From assembly GCA_964016885.1 (NCBI GenBank), contig OZ024743.1, forward strand, positions 312,108,001-312,172,000: a stretch of DNA of 64,000 bases. Direction: 5' to 3'. The notes beneath the pieces were generated by a model. It was given only the letters and a program-made list of their open reading frames with translations. It was not told where the DNA came from and did no database searches. This DNA comes from Eledone cirrhosa. Lineage: Eukaryota. Below, one piece after another: positions 5,366 through 51,530 of this stretch. The stretch's first letter is position 1, and the number at the start of each line of letters is the position of its first letter. A program made the translations under genes and the position numbers.

Positions 5366-5483
5366 TGTTAAATCAATAAAATGCTCAGCTTTTGAAAGAG
5401 TGAATATATTTAAAAGCTAAATTTACATTGGAATTCCACAGAAAGCTTGTAAAATAAATAAATAAACAGTAAAAGAGGCCTAC

Positions 5484-5665
5484 CTGTTGTTGTTGAACAA
5501 TAACAGAAGTGATTGGATCCGGAATAAGTGTAGGGAACTGGATCAAGCTGACATTATAGCTATCAGCCACATATTGACGGCTTGGTTCAAATACCACATG
5601 AAGGCTATTCTCACTATCTATTGAGACAGCGATTGTTCTTTTCTTGTTCACATTCAGTGAATTGA
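5484..5665 (-). CDS. IL-17R-like gene, exon 6 (FnIII-2)
   Basis: tttttctcctcag| acceptor, |GTAGGC donor, 182 nt, phase 1 to 0. (V)NSLNVNKKRTIAVSIDSENSLHVVFEPSRQYVADSYNVSLIQFP...QQQQ. Confidence 0.9.
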
Positions 5666-14541: not shown

Positions 14542-14877
14542 CACCAGACGGGAGCAGGAGAGTGAAATTAAGTGCAAAGTTATTGCGACGGTAGTCATTG
14601 AAACATGTGCGTTGTTCATCATGAATAGTAATACCAGAAATTTGTGGCCGTGCTGATGCACTTGTGGTAGTAGTAGTGGTAGTAGTACTAGTAGTAGTAG
14701 TAGATAGACTGCTGATGTTATGATTGTAAATAACATCAGTAATTGTAGCACTACCTCCTTCTCCTCCTCCTCTTGATGTAGGAATATCAACACTGGATTG
14801 GTAATGGTACTTCTGCCAACTCTGTACACTACCTTTGCTTCGGTTGCGTTCAAGTTCTCGGTTCACATAGTGGCATC
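14542..14877 (-). CDS. IL-17R-like gene, exon 3 (Thr-rich insert and start of FnIII-1)
   Basis: ctttag| acceptor, |GTGAGT donor, 336 nt, phase 1 to 1. CHYVNRELERN...STTTTSTTTTTTTTS...RTCFNDYRRNNFALNFTLLLPSG (ORF 14519..14866). Confidence 0.9.
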
Positions 14878-23990: not shown

Positions 23991-25100
23991 ACAACAAATA
24001 GGAACAACAACAAAATATGAAGACGTCGCATCTCAGAGTTGCAACACTTAATGTTGGCACTCTCAGAGGTAGATCTGCTGAAATAGCGGAGATGCTGGAG
24101 AGAAGGCAGGTGGATGTGTGCTGCGTGCAGGAGGTGAGATGGAGAGGTGCCTCTGCGAGACTAGTCGTAGGCAAACGTCTTAGCTATAAGCTATTCTGGG
24201 TAGGTAAGGATGATGGGTTAGGGGGAGTAGGCATTTTCCTGGCTGAGAAATGGATCAATAAGATAATAGAGGTAGTTCGAGTTAGTAATCGAATAATTAA
24301 GCTTAGATTAGTTGTAGGCAGGAGACTACTGACAATCATCTCGGCCTATGCTCCCCAAGCAGGCCTAGGCAAAGATGAGAAAGACTGCTTTTACGAGCAA
24401 CTTTTACAAACAACCGCAATGACAGAGGACGGAGACATCGTTATGCTAGCAGGAGACTTCAATGGTCATGTTGGACAGCTCCAGGATGGTTACACTGGGG
24501 TACATGGTGGGCACAGTTACGGCTCAAGAAATGAAAAAGGAGTGAGACTTCTTGAATTTTGTGATGCAGGTACATTGACTATTTGCAACACAAACTTCCA
24601 GAAACCTGCCAATCACCTAATAACCGATGTCGATGTAAACCTCGGAGTGGGGAGACCCGAGATGACCTGGGATGAGGTGATAAAAGCCGACCTTACCCAA
24701 TTACACTTCTCAAAGGCAATGACACACGACTGTGACCTCTGGCGTCACGCAGTAATACAGAGTACCCGACCTCCCATGGGTACAAGCTGAAGCATATAGA
24801 CAATATGCCCCCACACCCTCTCACTGCAAGGTGGTCGTGGAGGTGCCACGGCAAAAAAGCACCCAGCCCACACTGTAAAGTGGATGTGTAGGTTCCACAG
24901 AAAAAGCACCCAGCACTCACTGTAAATGAGGTTGGTGTTAGGAAGGGCATCCAGCTGTAGAAATCAAGCCAAAATCAGTTCCTGTATGAACAAGGCATGG
25001 TCAGCCGACCAGACACTGCCCACAACAGGACAACCCGTCTAACCCATGCTAGCATGGAAGAACGGACGTAAAACGGTGATGATGATGATGATGATGATGA
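23991..25100 (+). mobile_element. Internally deleted or chimeric RTE: endonuclease fused directly to the 3' end
   Basis: ORF 24017-24790 has the APE domain up to NHLIT, then jumps to GVGRPEMTWDEVIKADL. 3'UTR and (GAT)n tail follow. Confidence 0.9.
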
Positions 25101-31102: not shown

Positions 31103-34100
31103 ATGAAGACGTTGCATCTCAGAGTTGCAACAATTAATGTTGGCACTCTCACAGGTAGATCTAGTTAAAGGGTGGAGATGCTGGAGAGAAGGCATGTGGA
31201 TGTGTGCAAGAGGTGATATGGAGAGGTGCCTCTGCGAGACTAGTCGCAGGCAAACATCTTAGCTATAAGCTTTTCTGGGTAGGTAAGGATGATGGGTTAG
31301 GGGGAGTAGGCTTTTTCCTGGCTGAGAGATGGATCAATAAGACAATAGAGGTAGTTCGAGTTAATAATCGAATAATTAAACTTAGATTAGTTGTAGGCAG
31401 GAGACTACTGACAATCATCTCTGCCTATGCTCCACAAGCAGGCCTAGGCAAAGAAGAGAAAGACTGCTTTTACGAGCAACTTTTACAAACAGCTGCAATG
31501 ACAGAGGACGGAGACATCATTATGCTAGCAGGGGACTAAAATGGTCATGTTGGACAACTCCAGGATGATTACACTGGGGTACATGGTGGGCACGGTTACG
31601 GCTCAAGAAATGAAGAAGGAGTGAGACAAGACACTGACTATTTGCAACACTAACTTCCAGAAACCTGCCAATCACCTAATAACCTACAAATCAGGCGAGC
31701 ACATAAGCCAGATTGACTTCTTACTAGTTAGGCAGCGGGACAGGCAGATAGTGTCTAATACCAAGGCATACATGGGGAAGAATGTACCCCACAGCATAGG
31801 TTAGTTGTTAGTGATATCTCAGTAAGCAAGAGATGGAATGAGACATATAGGAAGGTGTGGAGAAGAAAGGTCTGGAAGCTAAAAGACCTTTCACTAAAAT
31901 ACAAATTTAGGAAAGCCCTTCAAGATGTATATGATGAAAAAGAAGACGATTTAGAGACGTATGACATAGATAATAACTGGAATTTCTTACGTGACAACTT
32001 GCTGCAGGCTACTGATGAAACTTGTGGCTGGAGCAGAGCTCCAACCAGACAGAGAGTGACCTGGTGGTGGAACAGCACAGTAGATAGGGCCATTAGAGAC
32101 AAAAGACTAGCATGGAAGGCTTGGAAAAGGGGTGGGAGTAGAGAAGGATATACAGCCGCTAAGAAAGAAGCTAGACGTCAGGTGTGCTTAACACGCAGGG
32201 AGGCTGAGAGTAGGTTTGCCACTGTTCTGCGACGGGAAGATAAGAGGCGCGTGGTGTTCCACATTGCAAGGCAGTGTGTCAATGCAAATCAGGATGTTGT
32301 TGGAGATAAATGTGTCCGGCATGATGCTGGTGTACTTAGTGTCACGAATGATCAGAAAAAGGAGGCCTGGAAATGTCATTATGAGAGACTGATGAATGTG
32401 GAGAATGAATGGGAAAGAGAAATTACCCTCAGTAGATACGACAGAGGGACCAGCTATTGAGATTGACGAATATAGGGTCCAAGAGGCAATTAAGGAAATG
32501 AAAAATGGTAAGGCTGCTGGACCGTTGGGGATAGTTGTTGAGATGCTGAAGGCATCAGGGGATGTAGGCGCTAAACGGGTTGCACGCATCATCAATCAGG
32601 CTATATATGGTGGTGTCTGCCCAAAGACTGGTGCAGCAGTATTCTCATAAATTGCTACAAAGGTAAAGAGGATGCTCTGGAGAGGAGCAATTATAGGGGT
32701 ATAAAACTGATGGATCAGGTTATGAAAGTGGCAGAAAGGATATTAGCACAACTAATTAGAGAAAGGGTCAAACTAGATGAGATGCAGTTTGGTTTTGTGC
32801 CTGGGAAAAGTACAACAGATGCCCTCTTCTTGGTGAGACAATTACAAGAGAGGTTCTTAGAGAAGAATAAGCCACTATACTTAGCCTTTGTTGACCTAGA
32901 GAAGGCCTTTGATAGGGTACCCCGATCTGTCATCTGGTGGTCTCTAAGGAAACTAGGTGTTGAGGAATGGCATGTGAGGACAGTGCAAACTTTGTACAGA
33001 GGTGCTGTCAGTAAAGTCAGAGTAGGAATGGAGTATAGTGAGGAATTCCAGATACAAGTAGGAGTACATCAAGGTTTGGTCCTCAGCCCGCTCTTGTTCA
33101 TTATAGTCCTCCAAGCCATAACAGAGGAGTTTAAGACTGGCTGTCCATGGGAACTTCTCTATGCTGACGATCTGGTTCTTATAGCAGAATCAGTAGAGGA
33201 GCTAGAGAATAAATTCTGGCTATGGAAACAGCAGTTGGAATCAAGGGGACTGAGAGTGAACCTAGCTAAGACAAAAGTGTTGATGAGTAGAAAAGAGGAC
33301 AAAACTCTGATTCCGTCATGGAAATGGCCATGTTCAATATGCAGAAAAGGAACTGGCATAAATTCTATAAAATGCACACAATGCAGATCCTGGGTACACA
33401 AGAGATGTAGTGGGATAGCAGGCAAACTAACAGGTAGGGAGAAATATGTATGCAGTAGATGTACAGGGAAATTAGACAGTAGAAGTCGCATTGATAGACA
33501 CATTTTTCAAATGCAGGCCGGTGCTATAGAAGTGGTGGATAGTTTCCGGTACCTAGGAGATCAGATTAGCATGGGAGGGCGGGTGTTCCGAGGTCATAGT
33601 ATCTAGAATAAGGACAGGTTGGAAGAGGTTTAGGGAGTGGCTTCCTCTGCTGACGAAGAAGGGTTTCTCCCTGCATACGAAAGGCCAGTTATATGATGCC
33701 TGTGTGAGGAGCGTGATGCTGCATGGTATTGAGACATGGGGAGCAGCTGCAGAGGATATGCGACGGCTGGAGAGAAATGAGGCAAGCATGCTCCTTTGGA
33801 TGTGCAATGTCAATGTGCGTGAACAACCCAACATGGATGTGTTGAGAGAGAAACTGTGTCTGAGAGGGATAGAATGTAGGGTGCGAGAGAGGAGACTGCG
33901 GTGGTATAGACATGTGATGCGCATGGAGGATTACTGATGGGTGAAGAAGTGCCAGGAAATGCCAGTTGAAGGAAGACGTGGTAGAGGTAGACCACAAAAA
34001 ACATGGGCGGAGGTGGTGAGATAAAGATGCTGAAGGTGCTGAAATAAAGATGACGAAGGACCGTGACAAGTGGAGAGATGCTGTGCTGAATAAGACCCGT

Positions 34101-34150
34101 CCAAACCTTGAAAGCAGGGAGAAGCGGACATAAAATGATGATGATGATGA
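31103..34150 (+). mobile_element. Near-full-length RTE-clade LINE, frameshifted (APE, RT, PHD finger)
   Basis: Endonuclease motifs (QE, YAP, GD), RT motifs (FVDLEKAFD, GVHQG, LLYADDL), C4HC3 finger, GRP..W tail, (GAT)n 3' end. Confidence 0.95.
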
Positions 34151-34707
34151 TATATATATATATATAGGTACGTTATTCCGGGTTGAATCGGAGGTAACCA
34201 CAGTAAGTAAGGTACTCAATACATAGCAGAGTATAAAAGTTTTAATATAGATGAGATTCTATATATAGAATCATCATCATCATATGTATCATCATCATCA
34301 TCATCATCATTTTATGTCCGCTTTTCCCTGCTTGCAAGGTTTGGACGGGTCTTATTCAGCACAGTATCTCTCCACTTGTCACGGTCCTTCGTCATCTTTA
34401 CTTCAGCGATCAGAGGTATGTTCTCACCACCTCCATCCATGTTTTTTGTGGTCTACCTCTACCACGTCTTCCTTCAACTGGCATTTCCTGGCACTTCTTC
34501 ACCCATCAGTAATCCTCCATGCGCATCACATGTCTATACCACCGCAGTCTCCTCTCTCGCACCCTACATTCTATCCCTCTCAGACACAGTTTCTCTCTCA
34601 ATATATGAGACCTATATATACCATAATTATTTTTTGATACCCAGATTCCTGATGATTTCTGAAGAATGAAACAGTTCTAGTCCTGTAGAATATATATATA
34701 TATATAC

Positions 34708-35973
34708 GGCCTAGAATCAAAAGGCCTTAAAATTAACCTGGCTAAGACTAAAGTTCTAGTTTGTAGGAAAGAAAATAAGGCGGTCCCTTCTGGGAAATGG
34801 CCATGCTCAGTGTGTAGGAAAGGCGTAGGTAGAAACTCCATTTTATGTCCCAAATGCAAAGTATGGGTGCATAAAAGATGTAGTGGGATCACAGGTAAGC
34901 TAACTAAGAACTTAGATTTTACATGTGGGCGGTGCTCTGGTGCAATAAGTAGCAGCGAGTGCCCACAAAATACTAACTCTTTCAATTGCGCAGAAGGCTC
35001 TATAGAAATAGTGGACAGCTTCCGTTACCTGGGTGACAAAATCAGCAGTGGGGGAGGGTGCTCCGAAAGTACAGTAGCTAGAGTCAGAACTGGATGGAAA
35101 AAGTTCAGAGAGCTTATACCACTATTAACCGCTAAAGGGTTCTCCCTAAAAATGAAAGGCAGGTTGTATGATGCTTGCATACGAACAGCAATGTTGCATG
35201 GCAGTGAGACCTGGGCATTGTGCGCAGAGGATATACGCAGACTAGAGAGGAATGAAGCTTGCATGCTCCGCTGGATGTGTAATAGTAATATACGTCAACG
35301 GCAAAGCATAAACGAACTAAGGAAAAAATTAGAAATAAGAGGGATCAGATGTTGTTTACTCGAGAGAAGGCTACGTTGGTACAGAGACGTGATGCGCATG
35401 AAAGTCGATAGCTGTATAACAAAGTGCAGGGCAATAAAGATAGACGGTAGCCACGGAATAGGCAGACCTAGAAAATCCTGGTACGAGCTGATAAACTCCG
35501 ACCTCACACACTTACACCTCTCCAAGACAATGTCACTGGACCGAGACCTTTGGCGGTACTCAGTAATAGAGAAGACCCGCCTTACCTAAATACATAGTAA
35601 AACCTACTACAGCCAGTAGGCATCTCTAACAAAATACACCCCCGTCCCACCACCCATACCCCATCCACACAACCCCCTCCTATGTAAAGTTATGTTGGTG
35701 CCACAACATCCAGGCCGAAACAAATGAGATCGTGTAGGTGTCACGACAAAAAAACACACAGTCCACGCTGTAATGTGGCCGTGTAGGCAACACGGTAAAA
35801 ACCTCCCGGTCCCACACTGTAAATGTGGTTGGTGTTAGGAAGGGCATCCAACTGTAGAAAACCTGCCAGACAGTCCTATGCGAGCAAGACAATCACTCTT
35901 GCCTCAAATGGGAATACCCCCGTCCAAACCCATGCAGGCGTGGAACACGGACGTTAAACGTTGATGATGATGA

Positions 35974-37559: not shown

Positions 37560-38200
37560 CTAAAATGCCAAGGCAAGAACACATAAAAGAACAAGGACAC
37601 ATGCCCCTAAGGATAACATATGCCACCTAAAGCTGCCACATTTCAATTAGAAGATGACAGCTGCCAAAAGACAAGCCATTCGTAAGGAGGAACTGAATAT
37701 ATGGCTGGCACACCTGGGACCCTCATTGAGGAGACTGCTCCACAGACACCAACCGACATACAATGATATATGCACACTTCCTTATTGTCCCATCAACACA
37801 GAAGTGTACATGAGAGCATTTGTAGTCTATAAGATCACGTGCAAAAAATATAGCTCCTCATACATCGGAAGTACCATAAGGAGACTACACATACAGATCA
37901 AGGAACACATGACAATGAGAATGTCTTCTGTTAAAAAACATCTTGACAGATGCTGCAACCAAGACATTGAGGTCACCACAGAGACAACTGAAAGGAATAT
38001 AAGGATTAAGGACGCCATTTTTTTTCAGCCGAATAAAACCAGACAAACAATAGATCAGAAATGCATGAGGCAGAATGGTTACTGTAGCGACCTTGCACAT
38101 GTGCATACGTTTTGCATATTGACCAGTTAGGGAAGAAAACTGATCACTCATTTGTTTGGTCTTCGACTGTTTCTGCGACGCATCTGAAAAGAGGGTATTA
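37560..38200 (+). mobile_element. Penelope-like element remnant (GIY-YIG endonuclease)
   Basis: ORF 37654-38130: VVYKITCKKYSSSYIGSTIRRLHIQIKEH...SSVKKHL. Confidence 0.8.
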
Positions 38201-38354
38201 GCCCTGAAATATCATGCTAAAATACACTGGGTAAAAAAATTACTTTTTGTTTTGTTTTGTTTCATTTGTCACCATTTGCTCTTCGTACTCTTCTAGCACA
38301 TTGTACTAGCTTTTAACAAAACATTATCTGTCTTTTACTAAATAGCTCACAATG

Positions 38355-40593
38355 CACATTGCACCTGGTGGGAAAATATTATCTTTTTAAGTTTTTCCTA
38401 TCACAGTTTATTGAAAATTTTCCGTTGAATAAGATCTTTAGGGAGAAGAAACAAAAAAACACAGCTAAAAAGATTGTGTCTAAAATGTTATGGTAATTAG
38501 TAATTTTGCAGTTCTTTTGCACAAAAAATTAGTTAACAAAAATCCACAAACTATCTTGAAAAATCATTCAAAACGAATAGGCCATAAAATATCAAAGCCA
38601 GTAAACTAGAGATTGAACTGGCACTTTCTGAAAGATAATTTATTGAATTTTCCCTGCTAAGTGTAGTTTTCTAAACAAGTCTAACACAAATCAGATAACT
38701 TTTAGAAATGTAATAGTTCATTGTAAAGAAATTATTCCATTTTTGCTCTAAGAAAGCCTTCAGAAAACAATTTTTTTTTAATTTCACAGCATTTCACACT
38801 ATAGAGTTAATATTTTCTGGAATCCCCTGGCTATGGTGGACTTTTGAGCAAAAATTCAGTTAAAAGAACTTAAAAGCTGAAGTTTTATGCTGACTTGAAT
38901 GTTCTTTGTTAGAACTTGTAACAGATCAGTTCCCCATGAAAATAACACATACTTTTGTGTTTAGCCACTTTTGTTTGATGGTACCCAATACAGTGAAACT
39001 CAAATGGGCTGAAATGCTTGATATAGATATTTCATTATCCCAGGATCCAATTCATGGTAGTCAGGTGTCTTTGGCACTTTTATCAAGAAAACTTTGTGCT
39101 GGTTGAAAAAAACAGTTACATGTCTAAAACCCTGAAATTAGAGAGGCAACTCCATCTAAAATAGTCACCACATGATAGGGAGTTGATGTTGAGCAATAAT
39201 TGACATTTAGAAATAATATAAAGGCTTTGCAGTAACCAATACATATGTAAGAAAACTTAGAAAAGATTGTACATTTTGAAACTGAATACCTGTATCAGTA
39301 CAGACTTTTAAACTAATACTAAGATAAAATTTCCTAGTGCTCCCCAAGTTCAATACTCAATATACTCATACTCAATGTCTATGTAAAATACATGGAGGCA
39401 ATTTTGCTTTCCTCTTGCATTAAAAGTGAAACATTCTTATGTTTGAGTGACAAGAGCTATGTGTCTATTTCTCCACAAATGAAGGCCAAGGTCTTTTTTA
39501 TGATATTTCCGGATTAGACATTATAAGCATCCTTTAGAAGATGTCATGAATATTGTCAATTACTGGAAGCTGGAGAGATCTTGCAGTTGCCCCACTCTGA
39601 AATGACCTGTGTTTGTTCCAACTTTCAAATGGATTTTCACTTCATTTCACAATTTACCGCCCACCATTCCATTCAAAAACATCCCAGCAGTGAGCACACA
39701 TTTGATGGAATGGTGGAACTATAACCACCAATGAGAAGCCCCTCTCATCAAAAATGAGTTTTTAAGTGTAACGTTAAATCTATCCCAAGCGCATTCAGTC
39801 TATCAGACCTTACTAACGTTGCCCAGAGACATTGTCCTTGTCTTCCCAGTTCAAAATGAGAGAACATATATTTTGGCAGTTTTTTTAACTGAAAAACTGG
39901 TCAGCCAATGGTCCCATAACTCTTTATCTAGAATCCATCAGATATTAATGAAGTATCATTTGCATGTGGCATGGCATAAATGACAGAATGTATGACTGTT
40001 CCTTTCAAGAAAAGATACTATCTTGCCAGTAATCATTGACACTGTTTTGCAGGTGACATTCACATTTATGTCAGTCACTGTGATACATAAACCAAAACTT
40101 TCCCTTAAAACATCCAAAGAAGGCTCAAGTTCTACAGGCAGCACATCTCGATCCTCAACAGCTCATACCAACACACTGTTGGTATGTTTGGAACAGGATT
40201 TGTCCAAATAATGTTATTAGCAAGCTGTAATTCTAATTGGCAATAACATGACAATATAAATGAGGTCTTTTTGCTGGTTCTAGAGTGCCATAGAGAGACA
40301 CTCCTTCTCTAAGTATGCCAAATCCATCCCTATGAAGTAATTAATCAAATTTACGAATCTAATACATTTTTCCACTAACCACAAATCACAGTAATTAAAC
40401 AATTTTTGCAGCAAATGCCAGAAAAAGAAATCAAGTTATATCTTCAAAATTAGATGCTTTCTTTGAATAGTTTTAACTCCATCAGTTACAGCTTTCTAAA
40501 ATGCTTCCAGCAAGCTATAAATGACTTCTTTGTGCCAATCTTTTTGTGATCATATGAATTTATTCCCAAATTTGGCATTCTGGGCGCACAGTG
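38355..40593 (-). mobile_element. Transib/RAG1-like DNA transposon, decayed and internally deleted
   Basis: Perfect 5-bp TSD CAATG (38350-38354, 40594-40598). Termini CACATTGCACCTGG and CACTGTGCGCCCAG. RAG1/Transib core motifs inside. Confidence 0.88.
39440..40335 (-). pseudogene. RAG1-core-like (Transib) DDE transposase remnant
   Basis: Collinear motifs across stops and frameshifts: IGMD, IIWTNPVPN, SMITGK (MIDGK), FCHLCHAT, LH, HQMCAH, SENPFESWNKH, DIF*RMLIMSNP, ICGEI. Confidence 0.88.
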
Positions 40594-41636
40594 CAATGTT
40601 TCATATTAACTATACTACATAATTTCATATTTTAAAAATATTAAATGCCTTCATTACCACAATTCTAATAAAGTACGCTACCTATGATTTGCAAATATTT
40701 TTTGAAATATTCAAAAATCTAAAGGGATTTAGTAATATAATTAACTTTCTCATTATTTAGCTTGTGTTGGGAACATTATAGGTTCTGACATCAAACTTTT
40801 TTTATAATGCTGGTACCATGATAAAACACAACTAGTATGCTCTGTGAAGTGGTTGGTCTTCCAGTCATGGAAACTATGCCAAAAATAGTTGAGAGGACAT
40901 TCAAGTTATGACAAAGCAACCTTTCTAGTGCTAGTGTCACAAAAAATGCACCCAGTACAGTATGCAAGGTGGTTGGTAATAGGAAGAGCATCCAGCTGTA
41001 GAAGCCATGTGAAAAAAGGGTCAAGAAAATTTTTCAGTTGAGTCAAGGGTATAACAACCTCCCTAGTGTTAGAGCCAGAAGAATATGCTCCTGGAACACT
41101 CTGTTGACTACATCAACATACATAGGTGAGAAGTGGGTCCCCAGCCCATCTGAGGGGTGAGTAGCACCAATAAAGTACTGATTTGGTCTGTGAGGACCCA
41201 TTGAACCCTTGCTAGCAGACATTAAATGGTGATAATGATGATAAACACTCTAAACAGTCTTTGATCACAAAAATAGGGACAGTTTCAAGTAATTTGGTAT
41301 AAAAAGAACCTAATGGAATTCTGACCTAAAATTTATGACTTAAAACATAGTTCACATATAAAAACAGATTTAGCTGATACACAAAGCAGGTGGGGGAAAT
41401 ACAATTAAATGAAATTTACAACACATAACTATGCAGGTTTACATGGCCTCATATGAGGTTGCATCTCATAGGTTTCTTGGAGGTTTTAATGATAGGGACC
41501 CCTAATTTTATCGTGAAAAGGAACATGAAATGAAGTGTCATGCTCAAGAACCTAACATAGTACTTGATCCAAGAATAGAATACATGACTTTATGATCCAC
41601 TGGGTGATAAAACTGTCCTCACTGATTAGTATAACC

Positions 41637-51385: not shown

Positions 51386-51496
51386 CAGAATAGTACAACT
51401 TGGATCGCATGAATCCCCCGTAAAAAGGCGCACGAATTCTCCAAAGGTAAACAATAACACAAACACGTAAAACAATAACACTAAACAACTACTCAT
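51386..51496 (-). CDS. IL-17-receptor-like type I membrane protein, coding exon 1 (signal peptide)
   Basis: gccgaccATG start. Reads MSSCLVLLFYVFVLLFTFGEFVRLFTGDSCDPSCTIL (hydrophobic signal peptide, 37 codons). Ends CTG|GTGAGT in phase 0, matching exon 2. Confidence 0.85.
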
Positions 51497-51530
51497 GGTC
51501 GGCCATATTTGAAGTCACATGACAGAACTA
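51497..51530 (-). promoter_or_regulatory. Proximal promoter/5'UTR with an E-box (GTCACATGAC) and a YY1-like AAATATGGCC
   Basis: Near-palindromic GTCACATGAC at 51514-51523 and AAATATGGCC immediately upstream of the start codon. Motif match only. Confidence 0.4.

What the first reader, a model, noticed from the sequence alone, without database searches (positions are those of the whole stretch)
38350..40598. Bounded RAG1-like/Transib transposon with RSS-like heptamer ends and a CAATG TSD, inside an immune-receptor intron
Seen: the 2239-bp element starts CACATTG and ends CACAGTG, the exact V(D)J RSS heptamer on the + strand. It is flanked by a perfect 5-bp duplication CAATG. Minus-strand translation across stops and frameshifts gives, in RAG1 order: IIWTNPVPN (40186-40212; Transib IWxNPxPSS), SMITGK..FCHLCHAT (39965-40039; Transib MIDGK..CxxC, RAG1 YDEK..CTLCDAT), HQMCAH..SENPFESWNKH (39609-39707; RAG1 HKTLAH..WASEGNESGNK, two Zn-binding His plus the catalytic Glu) and DIF*RMLIMSNP. 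Established: Transib and RAG-like transposons have CAC-heptamer TIRs and 5-bp TSDs, Drosophila Transibs prefer CARTG-like targets, and the group is ancestral to RAG1. Inference: this is a dead, internally deleted copy of a RAG1-like family that once moved in a probable cephalopod genome. RAG-like elements are known from bivalves and deuterostomes; I do not know of a described cephalopod family. The ORF track shows only fragments of it.
Basis: partly seen in the sequence, partly recalled or inferred. Interest (0 to 1): 0.9.

Follow-up and report, generated by a model that had tools for sequence, protein, structure and literature searches.

The report
Dead RAG-like Transib transposon family
This is a broken copy of a small, old family of cut-and-paste jumping genes related to the enzyme that assembles our antibody genes; it likely belongs to the little-studied Transib branch nearest that enzyme, not to the RAG1-RAG2 transposons themselves, and it likely sits by chance in an intron of an IL-17-receptor-like gene.

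Summary
The element is real. Window 38355-40593 is one of at least 58 decayed loci of a Transib family in G000 (median K2P distance to consensus 0.084). The family has 15-bp TIRs that begin CACAGTG at both ends and 5-bp C-N-N-T-G target duplications. The transposase is Transib, not RAG1L. Intact unnamed ~700-aa relatives (57% identical full-length, up to 72% in fragments) match HzTransib best, have no RING, and no RAG2L fits in the element. They carry RAG1-side traits: a GRP-type NBD, the alpha11-alpha12 segment and a CX2CX3GH tail, here lacking the fourth Cys. The ends show a modest 22/12-13 nonamer-like asymmetry. 25 of 26 readable copies share one ~620-bp deletion that removes the first catalytic Asp, so a non-autonomous master was likely mobilised in trans; no intact copy was found. 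The host intron is inferred to belong to a SEFIR/IL-17R-like gene. My literature searches found no cephalopod Transib family. The scan noted a Transib with this heptamer before, in another genome, but not this family.

The parts
38350..38354 (.). Left target-site duplication CAATG
38355..38369 (+). TIR at the 3' end of the transposase gene (decayed; family consensus CACAGTGCACCCAGA), followed in the consensus by a nonamer-like A tract at spacer 12-13
38370..39380 (.). About 1 kb non-coding 3' region of the element; longest stop-free stretch in the consensus is 62 codons, so no RAG2L
39388..39480 (-). C-terminal tail remnant (CX2CX3GH type, fourth Cys absent; frameshifted in every copy read)
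39480..39914 (-). Transposase remnant matching P0003 aa 503-665: alpha11-alpha12-like segment, ZnH2 histidines (HQMCAH) and catalytic Glu (SENP, 39630-39641)
39918..39924 (.). Junction of a ~325-bp deletion in this copy relative to the family consensus (removes about P0003 aa 375-502)
39965..40287 (-). Transposase remnant matching P0003 aa ~266-374: IIWTNPVPN, second-Asp motif (Asp replaced by Thr in this copy), CHLC zinc pair
40285..40303 (.). 19-bp filler at the junction of the family-wide ~620-bp deletion, which removes the NBD-like region to the first catalytic Asp
40579..40593 (-). TIR at the 5' end of the gene (reads CACTGTGCGCCCAGA inward; one mismatch in the heptamer); nonamer-like tract at spacer 22 in the consensus
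40594..40598 (.). Right target-site duplication CAATG
51386..51519 (-). Context: inferred first coding exon (signal-peptide-like, GT donor) of the host SEFIR/IL-17R-like gene
   Evidence: role inferred
14542..14877 (-). Context: candidate ectodomain exon of the host gene (AG...GT, open frame)
   Evidence: no Pfam match; inferred
5427..5665 (-). Context: candidate ectodomain exon of the host gene (AG...GT, open frame)
   Evidence: no Pfam match; inferred

Best explanation
The element is a decayed, non-autonomous copy of a Transib DNA transposon family, likely of the RAG1-side (Subgroup I-like) branch, which was likely copied around the genome by a since-lost intact transposase and now does nothing. 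Shown: 15-bp CACAGTG TIRs, 5-bp C-N-N-T-G TSDs, at least 58 dispersed loci, one shared ~620-bp deletion, a longer parent-type copy (L037), no intact frame in any match. Inferred from the family (HzTransib/RAG chemistry as described in PMC10629977, passages): a ~700-aa DDE transposase bound the heptamer ends, cut by nick and hairpin, and pasted into GC-edged 5-bp targets. A deleted master that had lost the first catalytic Asp kept both ends and was amplified in trans; the copies then decayed (about 8% from consensus). This copy later lost a further ~325 bp and its second Asp. Its place in the first intron of a SEFIR/IL-17R-like gene is inferred and is most likely incidental.
For: Family and ends: (reversed-pattern controls 0). 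TSD: 4 of 11 two-ended copies perfect (3 of 10 without the window's own) and 2 of 11 at 4/5, against 1 of 110 perfect in mismatched pairs; flank bases C at position 1 in 30 of 49, T at 4 in 29 of 49, G at 5 in 27 of 49 (the two flanks of one copy are not independent). Homology: profile A1 gives 421 hits at E<=1e-3, best P0003 at 4e-107; P0003 matches HzTransib at E 6e-23; profile A3 ranks HzTransib > BbRAG1L > RAG1. AlphaFold model of P0003 (pLDDT 91) aligns to HzTransib at Z 31.7, rmsd 3.0, 472 residues, 23% identity, and to RAG1 at Z 30.7, rmsd 2.8, 482 residues, 16%. The profile aligns to RAG1 and BbRAG1L without the 9-residue gap that HzTransib shows in the zinc-binding domain. Shared deletion: 22 of 23 plus 3 of 3 readable junctions; only L037 (whole) and L010 (part) hold N-terminal coding sequence. 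The tail frameshift is shared: 0 of 11 measured copies are in frame.
Against: 5 of 11 two-ended copies match at 3/5 or fewer TSD positions; age or misplaced ends is the assumed cause. No fragment of the family itself matched Pfam RAG1 or the PDB; the link runs through intact relatives. The structure search does not separate HzTransib from RAG1 (Z 31.7 against 30.7). No tree with named Transib or RAG1L references was built, so the subgroup is assigned from features. The autonomous helper was not found, and the genome searches are lower bounds. The intron assignment lacks a joining transcript.
Confidence: 0.85

Rival explanations
1. It is a deleted RAG1L (ProtoRAG-type) transposon that lost RAG2L and the RAG1 N-terminal region.
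For: CX2CX3GH tail, alpha11-alpha12-like segment, exact RSS heptamer, fold as close to RAG1 as to HzTransib. PMC7204232 (passages) raises loss of RAG2L as a route to Transib.
Against: Profile E-values favour HzTransib by 27 orders of magnitude over BbRAG1L. Identity is 16-18% to RAG1/RAG1L and 22-24% to HzTransib. No RING pattern in 7 of 7 intact relatives, whose GRP-type motif starts at residue 81-99. The longest copy is 3148 bp with no RAG2L-sized frame. The TIR lacks the protostome RAGL AAA at positions 8-10.
Confidence: 0.07
2. It is an ordinary insect-type (Subgroup II, HzTransib-like) Transib, and the RAG-side traits are incidental.
For: HzTransib is the best sequence and structure match; the closest Atlas clusters are mostly arthropod (score 0.94, a lead only); CAWTG-like targets are described for mosquito Transibs (PMC1131882 section 8).
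Against: Subgroup II is defined by loss of alpha11-alpha12 and by a different tail (PMC9435367, whole text). This clade keeps the segment and a CX2CX3GH tail (40 hits carry the motif). By eye, the core motifs follow the ctenophore MleTransib_2823 more closely than the Subgroup II proteins in the same supplement. HzTransib is the only Transib in the PDB hits, so it wins by default.
Confidence: 0.1
3. The insertion was kept because it serves the host IL-17R-like gene, or its RSS-like ends are used for DNA rearrangement.
For: It likely lies in the first intron of a SEFIR gene, on the same strand.
Against: Divergence from consensus (0.077) is near the family median (0.084). Both heptamers are mutated, two of three catalytic residues are gone, and no intact recombinase was found in G000 (floor searches). 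The first intron is about 36 kb and rich in repeats, so an insertion there needs no special cause.
Confidence: 0.03

Closest known systems
Subgroup I Transib (Tao et al. 2022, PMC9435367: ctenophore MleTransib/PbaTransib, Hydra Transib-9; whole text and parts 1, 5, 14, 22, 23 of 24 of the supplement read)
   Same: Single ~700-aa transposase, alpha11-alpha12-like segment, CX2CX3GH tail, GRP-type NBD, asymmetric ends; core motifs resemble MleTransib_2823 by eye.
   Different: The fourth tail Cys is replaced, with a His nearby, in the sub-clade that holds this family. The clade is separated from the other hits by a long branch (1.29, support 100, quick tree). The signature DGKMV has 0 hits in the paper's supplement text, and octopus/cephalopod terms have 0 hits; 5 of 21 pages of one file are pictures and could not be read.
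HzTransib of Helicoverpa zea (PDB 6PQN/6PQX)
   Same: Best sequence and fold match; DDE core, zinc site, 5-bp TSD.
   Different: HzTransib lacks the 9-residue segment and has another tail type; 22-24% identity.
ProtoRAG / bivalve RAGL transposons (BbRAG1L, PDB 6B40; PMC7204232 and PMC10629977, passages read)
   Same: CAC heptamer TIR, 5-bp TSD, CCGH-type tail, alpha11-alpha12.
   Different: No RAG2L, no RING-containing N-terminal region, 18% identity, much shorter element.
Nozomi/Kodama of Drosophila (bioRxiv 10.64898/2026.08.26.747230; abstract and passages read)
   Same: A Transib whose copies are mostly one precise internal-deletion derivative mobilised in trans; 5-bp CARTG target.
   Different: Recent and with a living autonomous partner; this family is old and no partner was found; the junction here holds a 19-bp filler.

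Membership tests
Transib superfamily | Transposase homologous to Transib/RAG1 core with a DDE triad | tested here: met
   Window matches P0003; P0003 matches HzTransib. First Asp present in L037; second Asp in 13 of 18 copies read; Glu present in the window copy.
Transib superfamily | TIRs beginning with a CAC heptamer | tested here: met
   Consensus CACAGTG at both ends, 15-bp TIR.
Transib superfamily | 5-bp TSD with target preference | tested here: met
   4 of 11 perfect against 1 of 110 in the null; C-N-N-T-G bias.
Transib superfamily | Single gene, autonomous length 3-4 kb, ~700 aa | tested here: met
   L037 is 3148 bp; relatives are 684-719 aa; definition from PMC1131882.
Transib superfamily | Nick-hairpin cleavage and transposition activity | not testable with these tools
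   Needs biochemistry on an intact relative.
Subgroup I Transib | alpha11-alpha12 region retained | tested here: met
   Profile A2 aligns through this region to RAG1 and BbRAG1L, while HzTransib shows a 9-residue gap. Equating that gap with alpha11-alpha12 is my reading.
Subgroup I Transib | CTT1 motif CX2CX3GHX4C | tested here: not met
   CX2CX3GH is present but the fourth Cys is absent in this family and in 5 of 5 tail-bearing relatives of its sub-clade (P0003, P0004, P0009, P0010, P0011); it is present in 5 of 5 sister-clade tails (P0013, P0014, P0016, P0157, P0158). Overall 25 Cys, 13 His-near, 2 other of 40. Filed as a variant, not a full member.
Subgroup I Transib | Asymmetric bipartite TIRs | tested here: inconclusive
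   Transib nonamer matches 7/9 at spacer 22 and 6/9 at spacer 12-13; null 0.001-0.013. RSS nonamer p 0.15; unguided shared 11-mer p 0.09.
Subgroup I Transib | Phylogenetic placement with named Subgroup I members | not testable with these tools
RAGL (RAG1L-RAG2L) transposons | RAG2L gene inside the TIRs | tested here: not met
   Longest stop-free stretch in the 1.06-kb 3' region is 62 codons; longest copy 3148 bp.
RAGL (RAG1L-RAG2L) transposons | [quoted passage not shown] | tested here: not met
   No RING pattern in 7 of 7 intact relatives; only 80-98 residues precede the GRP-type motif.
Chapaev/CMC | 2-4-bp TSD | tested here: not met
   TSD is 5 bp; CMC range from the bioRxiv passage.

The most novel reading that the evidence does not exclude
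This family marks an undescribed marine Transib lineage, with intact members in metagenome data, that unites the three traits proposed for the pre-RAG ancestor (GRP-type nonamer-binding domain, 12/23-like asymmetric ends, CCGH tail). Its sub-clade has then remodelled the tail's zinc knuckle while keeping an exact CACAGTG heptamer, an independent step towards RAG's NBD/nonamer mode of end recognition without RAG2. It entered this genome by horizontal transfer.
Probability: 0.2. Interest if true: 0.75.

Novelty: new variant of a known kind. Interest (0 to 1): 0.5.

Why it matters
The copy itself is inert. Its value is as a pointer. First, Transibs are rare in molluscs: one ORF-based element in a survey of 39 genomes that included two cephalopods (PMC10294476, passages), and my searches found no cephalopod family. 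Second, the genome supplies well-sampled transposon ends and target preference for a clade whose intact ~700-aa enzymes exist only as unnamed contigs. Third, PMC10629977 (passages) proposes that the RAG ancestor had both a GRP-type NBD and a CCGHC tail and that one of the two tends to be lost. This clade has both, with a tail variant in one branch and the canonical tail in its sister, so that idea can be tested with natural enzymes.

Tried and rejected
Pfam scans of the window's fragments (0 families in 7 frames) and of 29 copy fragments (no RAG1; 12 scattered single hits) found nothing. PDB searches with P0002 and profile A1 found no relative. Pfam RAG1 against G000 found 0, with no control ringing either, so it is uninformative. 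The Atlas search of a 121-aa fragment was uninformative. The 5.8-billion-protein homologue search could not be made, so source names and taxa of relatives are unknown; the cluster look-up named none usefully. Pattern scans found no relative in prokaryote genomes (0 of 55 candidates) or viral contigs (0 of 36), and 2 of 49 in metagenome contigs, neither a bounded intact element. My first stitched model placed the first Asp in a 'GMD' motif; alignment to P0003 showed this was the wrong frame and I dropped it. The 19-bp filler has no source in L037's extra segment. 150 of 234 window ORFs (repeat-like ones left out) gave no Pfam match for host exons. No RNA holder was listed for the host exon. Only one stretch could be laid with reads, so the exon join across the element is open. 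The careful tree did not finish; only the quick tree was read (37 rows, proteins under 340 aa and near-duplicates left out). The empty site in related species could not be examined: G000 has no relatives here.

Full report
Observation. The element spans 38355-40593, is flanked by CAATG on both sides, and carries the four quoted peptide motifs at the stated coordinates. The heptamer statement needs correcting. Ends are read inward: the right end reads CACTGTG and the left CACATTG, each one base from CACAGTG. The duplication alone is weak evidence: it is the only perfect one among 223 heptamer-like site pairs in the window, and about 0.2 would be expected by chance.

The family. A DNA search of G000 (3.0 Gb) gave 95 matches, most 74-93% identical. 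I examined 40 loci and 18 more found by protein and end searches, 58 in all; counts are lower bounds. The majority consensus has a 15-bp TIR, CACAGTGCACCCAGA, at both ends. CACAGTG is the commonest heptamer at 10 of 26 left ends and 12 of 23 right ends. Of 11 copies with both ends located, 4 have a perfect 5-bp TSD (the window's own among them), 2 match 4/5, and 5 match 3/5 or fewer; mismatched pairs give 1 perfect in 110. Flanks favour C-N-N-T-G, like the CASTG/CAWTG targets of mosquito Transibs (PMC1131882 section 8) and CARTG of Nozomi. End patterns with up to 2 mismatches hit 18 and 13 places, with 0 for reversed controls, so the family is small and no young burst was seen. K2P distance to consensus is 0.063-0.128, median 0.084 (38 copies), and 0.077 for the window copy.

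The protein. Fragments of the family matched neither Pfam nor the PDB. A profile of 29 natural fragments found 421 proteins at E<=1e-3 among 1.84 billion, led by unnamed 684-719-aa proteins from 2.2-3.7-kb contigs. The best, P0003 (702 aa), matches the window at E 8e-29 and 5e-12, is 57% identical to the family read-through over 437 residues, and fragments reach 70-72% over 167-196 residues. P0003 matches HzTransib at E 6e-23. A profile of 13 close relatives scores HzTransib 1e-46, amphioxus RAG1L 3e-19 and vertebrate RAG1 1e-12. The AlphaFold model (pLDDT 91) aligns to HzTransib (Z 31.7, rmsd 3.0, 472 residues, 23%) and RAG1 (Z 30.7, rmsd 2.8, 482 residues, 16%), with P element next at Z 12.4; one RAG1 alignment runs from model residue 82, the GRP motif, to RAG1 residue 389. 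No RING pattern occurs in 7 of 7 intact relatives, and the element has no room for RAG2L. This is a Transib, not a RAG1L.

Which Transib. PMC9435367 (whole text) splits Transibs in two. Subgroup I keeps the alpha11-alpha12 region, a CX2CX3GHX4C tail and asymmetric TIRs, and is proposed as the intermediate to RAG1L. The broader profile aligns through the zinc-binding domain to RAG1 and BbRAG1L where HzTransib has a 9-residue gap. By eye the core motifs follow ctenophore MleTransib_2823 better than the Subgroup II proteins. A CX2CX3GH tail occurs in 40 hits: 25 have the fourth Cys, 13 have another residue with a His nearby, 2 neither. On the quick tree of 37 rows, the family sits with P0003, P0036 and P0124 (support 100) inside a 99-supported clade whose 5 tail-bearing relatives all lack the fourth Cys, whereas 5 of 5 sister-clade tails have it. 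A GRP-like motif is present in 8 long relatives checked, as GRP in 6 and as GRR or GQP in 2. The consensus ends match the published Transib nonamer at 7/9 with a 22-bp spacer at the gene's 5' end and 6/9 with a 12-13-bp spacer at the 3' end; nulls give 0.001-0.013. Against this, the RSS nonamer gives p 0.15 and an unguided test p 0.09, and the orientation is the reverse of that described. I therefore call it Subgroup I-like, a variant, without a reference tree.

How it spread. The consensus coding region begins at P0003 residue 266, after the first catalytic Asp. One copy, L037 (3148 bp, perfect CTCTG TSD), holds an extra ~620 bp encoding residues ~82-255 including that Asp; L010 holds part of it. 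At this junction 22 of 23 readable copies, and 3 of 3 more, have the same deletion with a 19-bp filler or small variants of it. A 1-bp frameshift in the tail is shared by all copies measured, L037 included (0 of 11 in frame), while another frameshift is carried by some copies only. No match in the protein searches showed an intact frame. The simplest reading is amplification of defective masters in trans by a helper that is now lost or was missed, as described for Nozomi/Kodama (abstract). The window copy has a further ~325-bp deletion and Thr in place of the second Asp.

Host context. A SEFIR domain lies on the minus strand at C4:312,015,448-312,015,900, about 92 kb beyond the window's left edge, in a 601-codon frame without ectodomain. 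In the window, minus-strand candidates are a signal-peptide-like exon at 51386-51519, covered by the end of a 2394-nt contig from a run guessed to be RNA, and two open AG-GT exons at 14542-14877 and 5427-5665. The element would lie in the ~36-kb first intron of an IL-17R-like gene. This is inferred; no record was shown to join these exons. Nothing suggests function: divergence is typical of the family and both heptamers are mutated.

Novelty. Searches for Transib with octopus or cephalopod (listings only, except where noted) gave no paper describing such a family. PMC7204232, PMC10629977 and PMC8967140 have no relevant term hits, and the PMC9435367 supplement text has none (some pages are pictures). 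PMC10294476 counted one Transib ORF in 39 genomes. Repbase, Dfam and subscription journals were not searched, and automatic repeat libraries may already hold this family unnamed. The host's identity as an octopod comes from unchecked earlier notes. The scan has noted another Transib with this heptamer in a different genome and nothing like this sequence.

Verdict. A real, old, non-autonomous Transib family of a RAG1-side branch with a variant tail; new variant of a known kind; interest 0.5.

Noticed in passing
L094:442-1816: In a metagenome contig, a transposase of the same clade is interrupted by a 1.4-kb stretch that begins CACAGTGGGCCCAGAGGTGG, much like this family's 3' TIR, and ends in CACTGTG; no TSD was seen. 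Possibly a related non-autonomous element in another organism.
   Followed up: partly
window 39208-39784 and L012/L102 (C4:309.83 Mb): A ~580-bp part of the element is 93% identical to the copy 2.3 Mb away on the same contig, against 79-88% elsewhere in that pair: gene conversion or a shared sub-lineage.
   Followed up: partly
G000:C4:312014137-312015942 (L103:3138-4943, minus strand): 601-codon SEFIR exon with a long Gln-rich tail; with the window's exons it suggests an IL-17R-like gene of about 145 kb.
   Followed up: partly
window 39592-40255: Contigs of run X1 (another coded organism, RNA guessed) lay on the transposase remnant at 88% likeness or more (depth 2.7), a weak hint that the family exists in a second species.
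   Followed up: no
L018 and L034; L005 and L019: Pairs of copies share secondary changes at the deletion junction, pointing to sub-lineages of the non-autonomous master.
   Followed up: no
window 24002-24790, 31165-35589: Long ORFs that look like endonuclease and reverse-transcriptase parts of LINE elements, several decayed copies (family recalled, not tested).
   Followed up: no
window 37651-38130: 159-codon ORF next to the element with a YIGST motif resembling a GIY-YIG (Penelope-type) endonuclease (motif recalled; no Pfam match at 1e-3).
   Followed up: no
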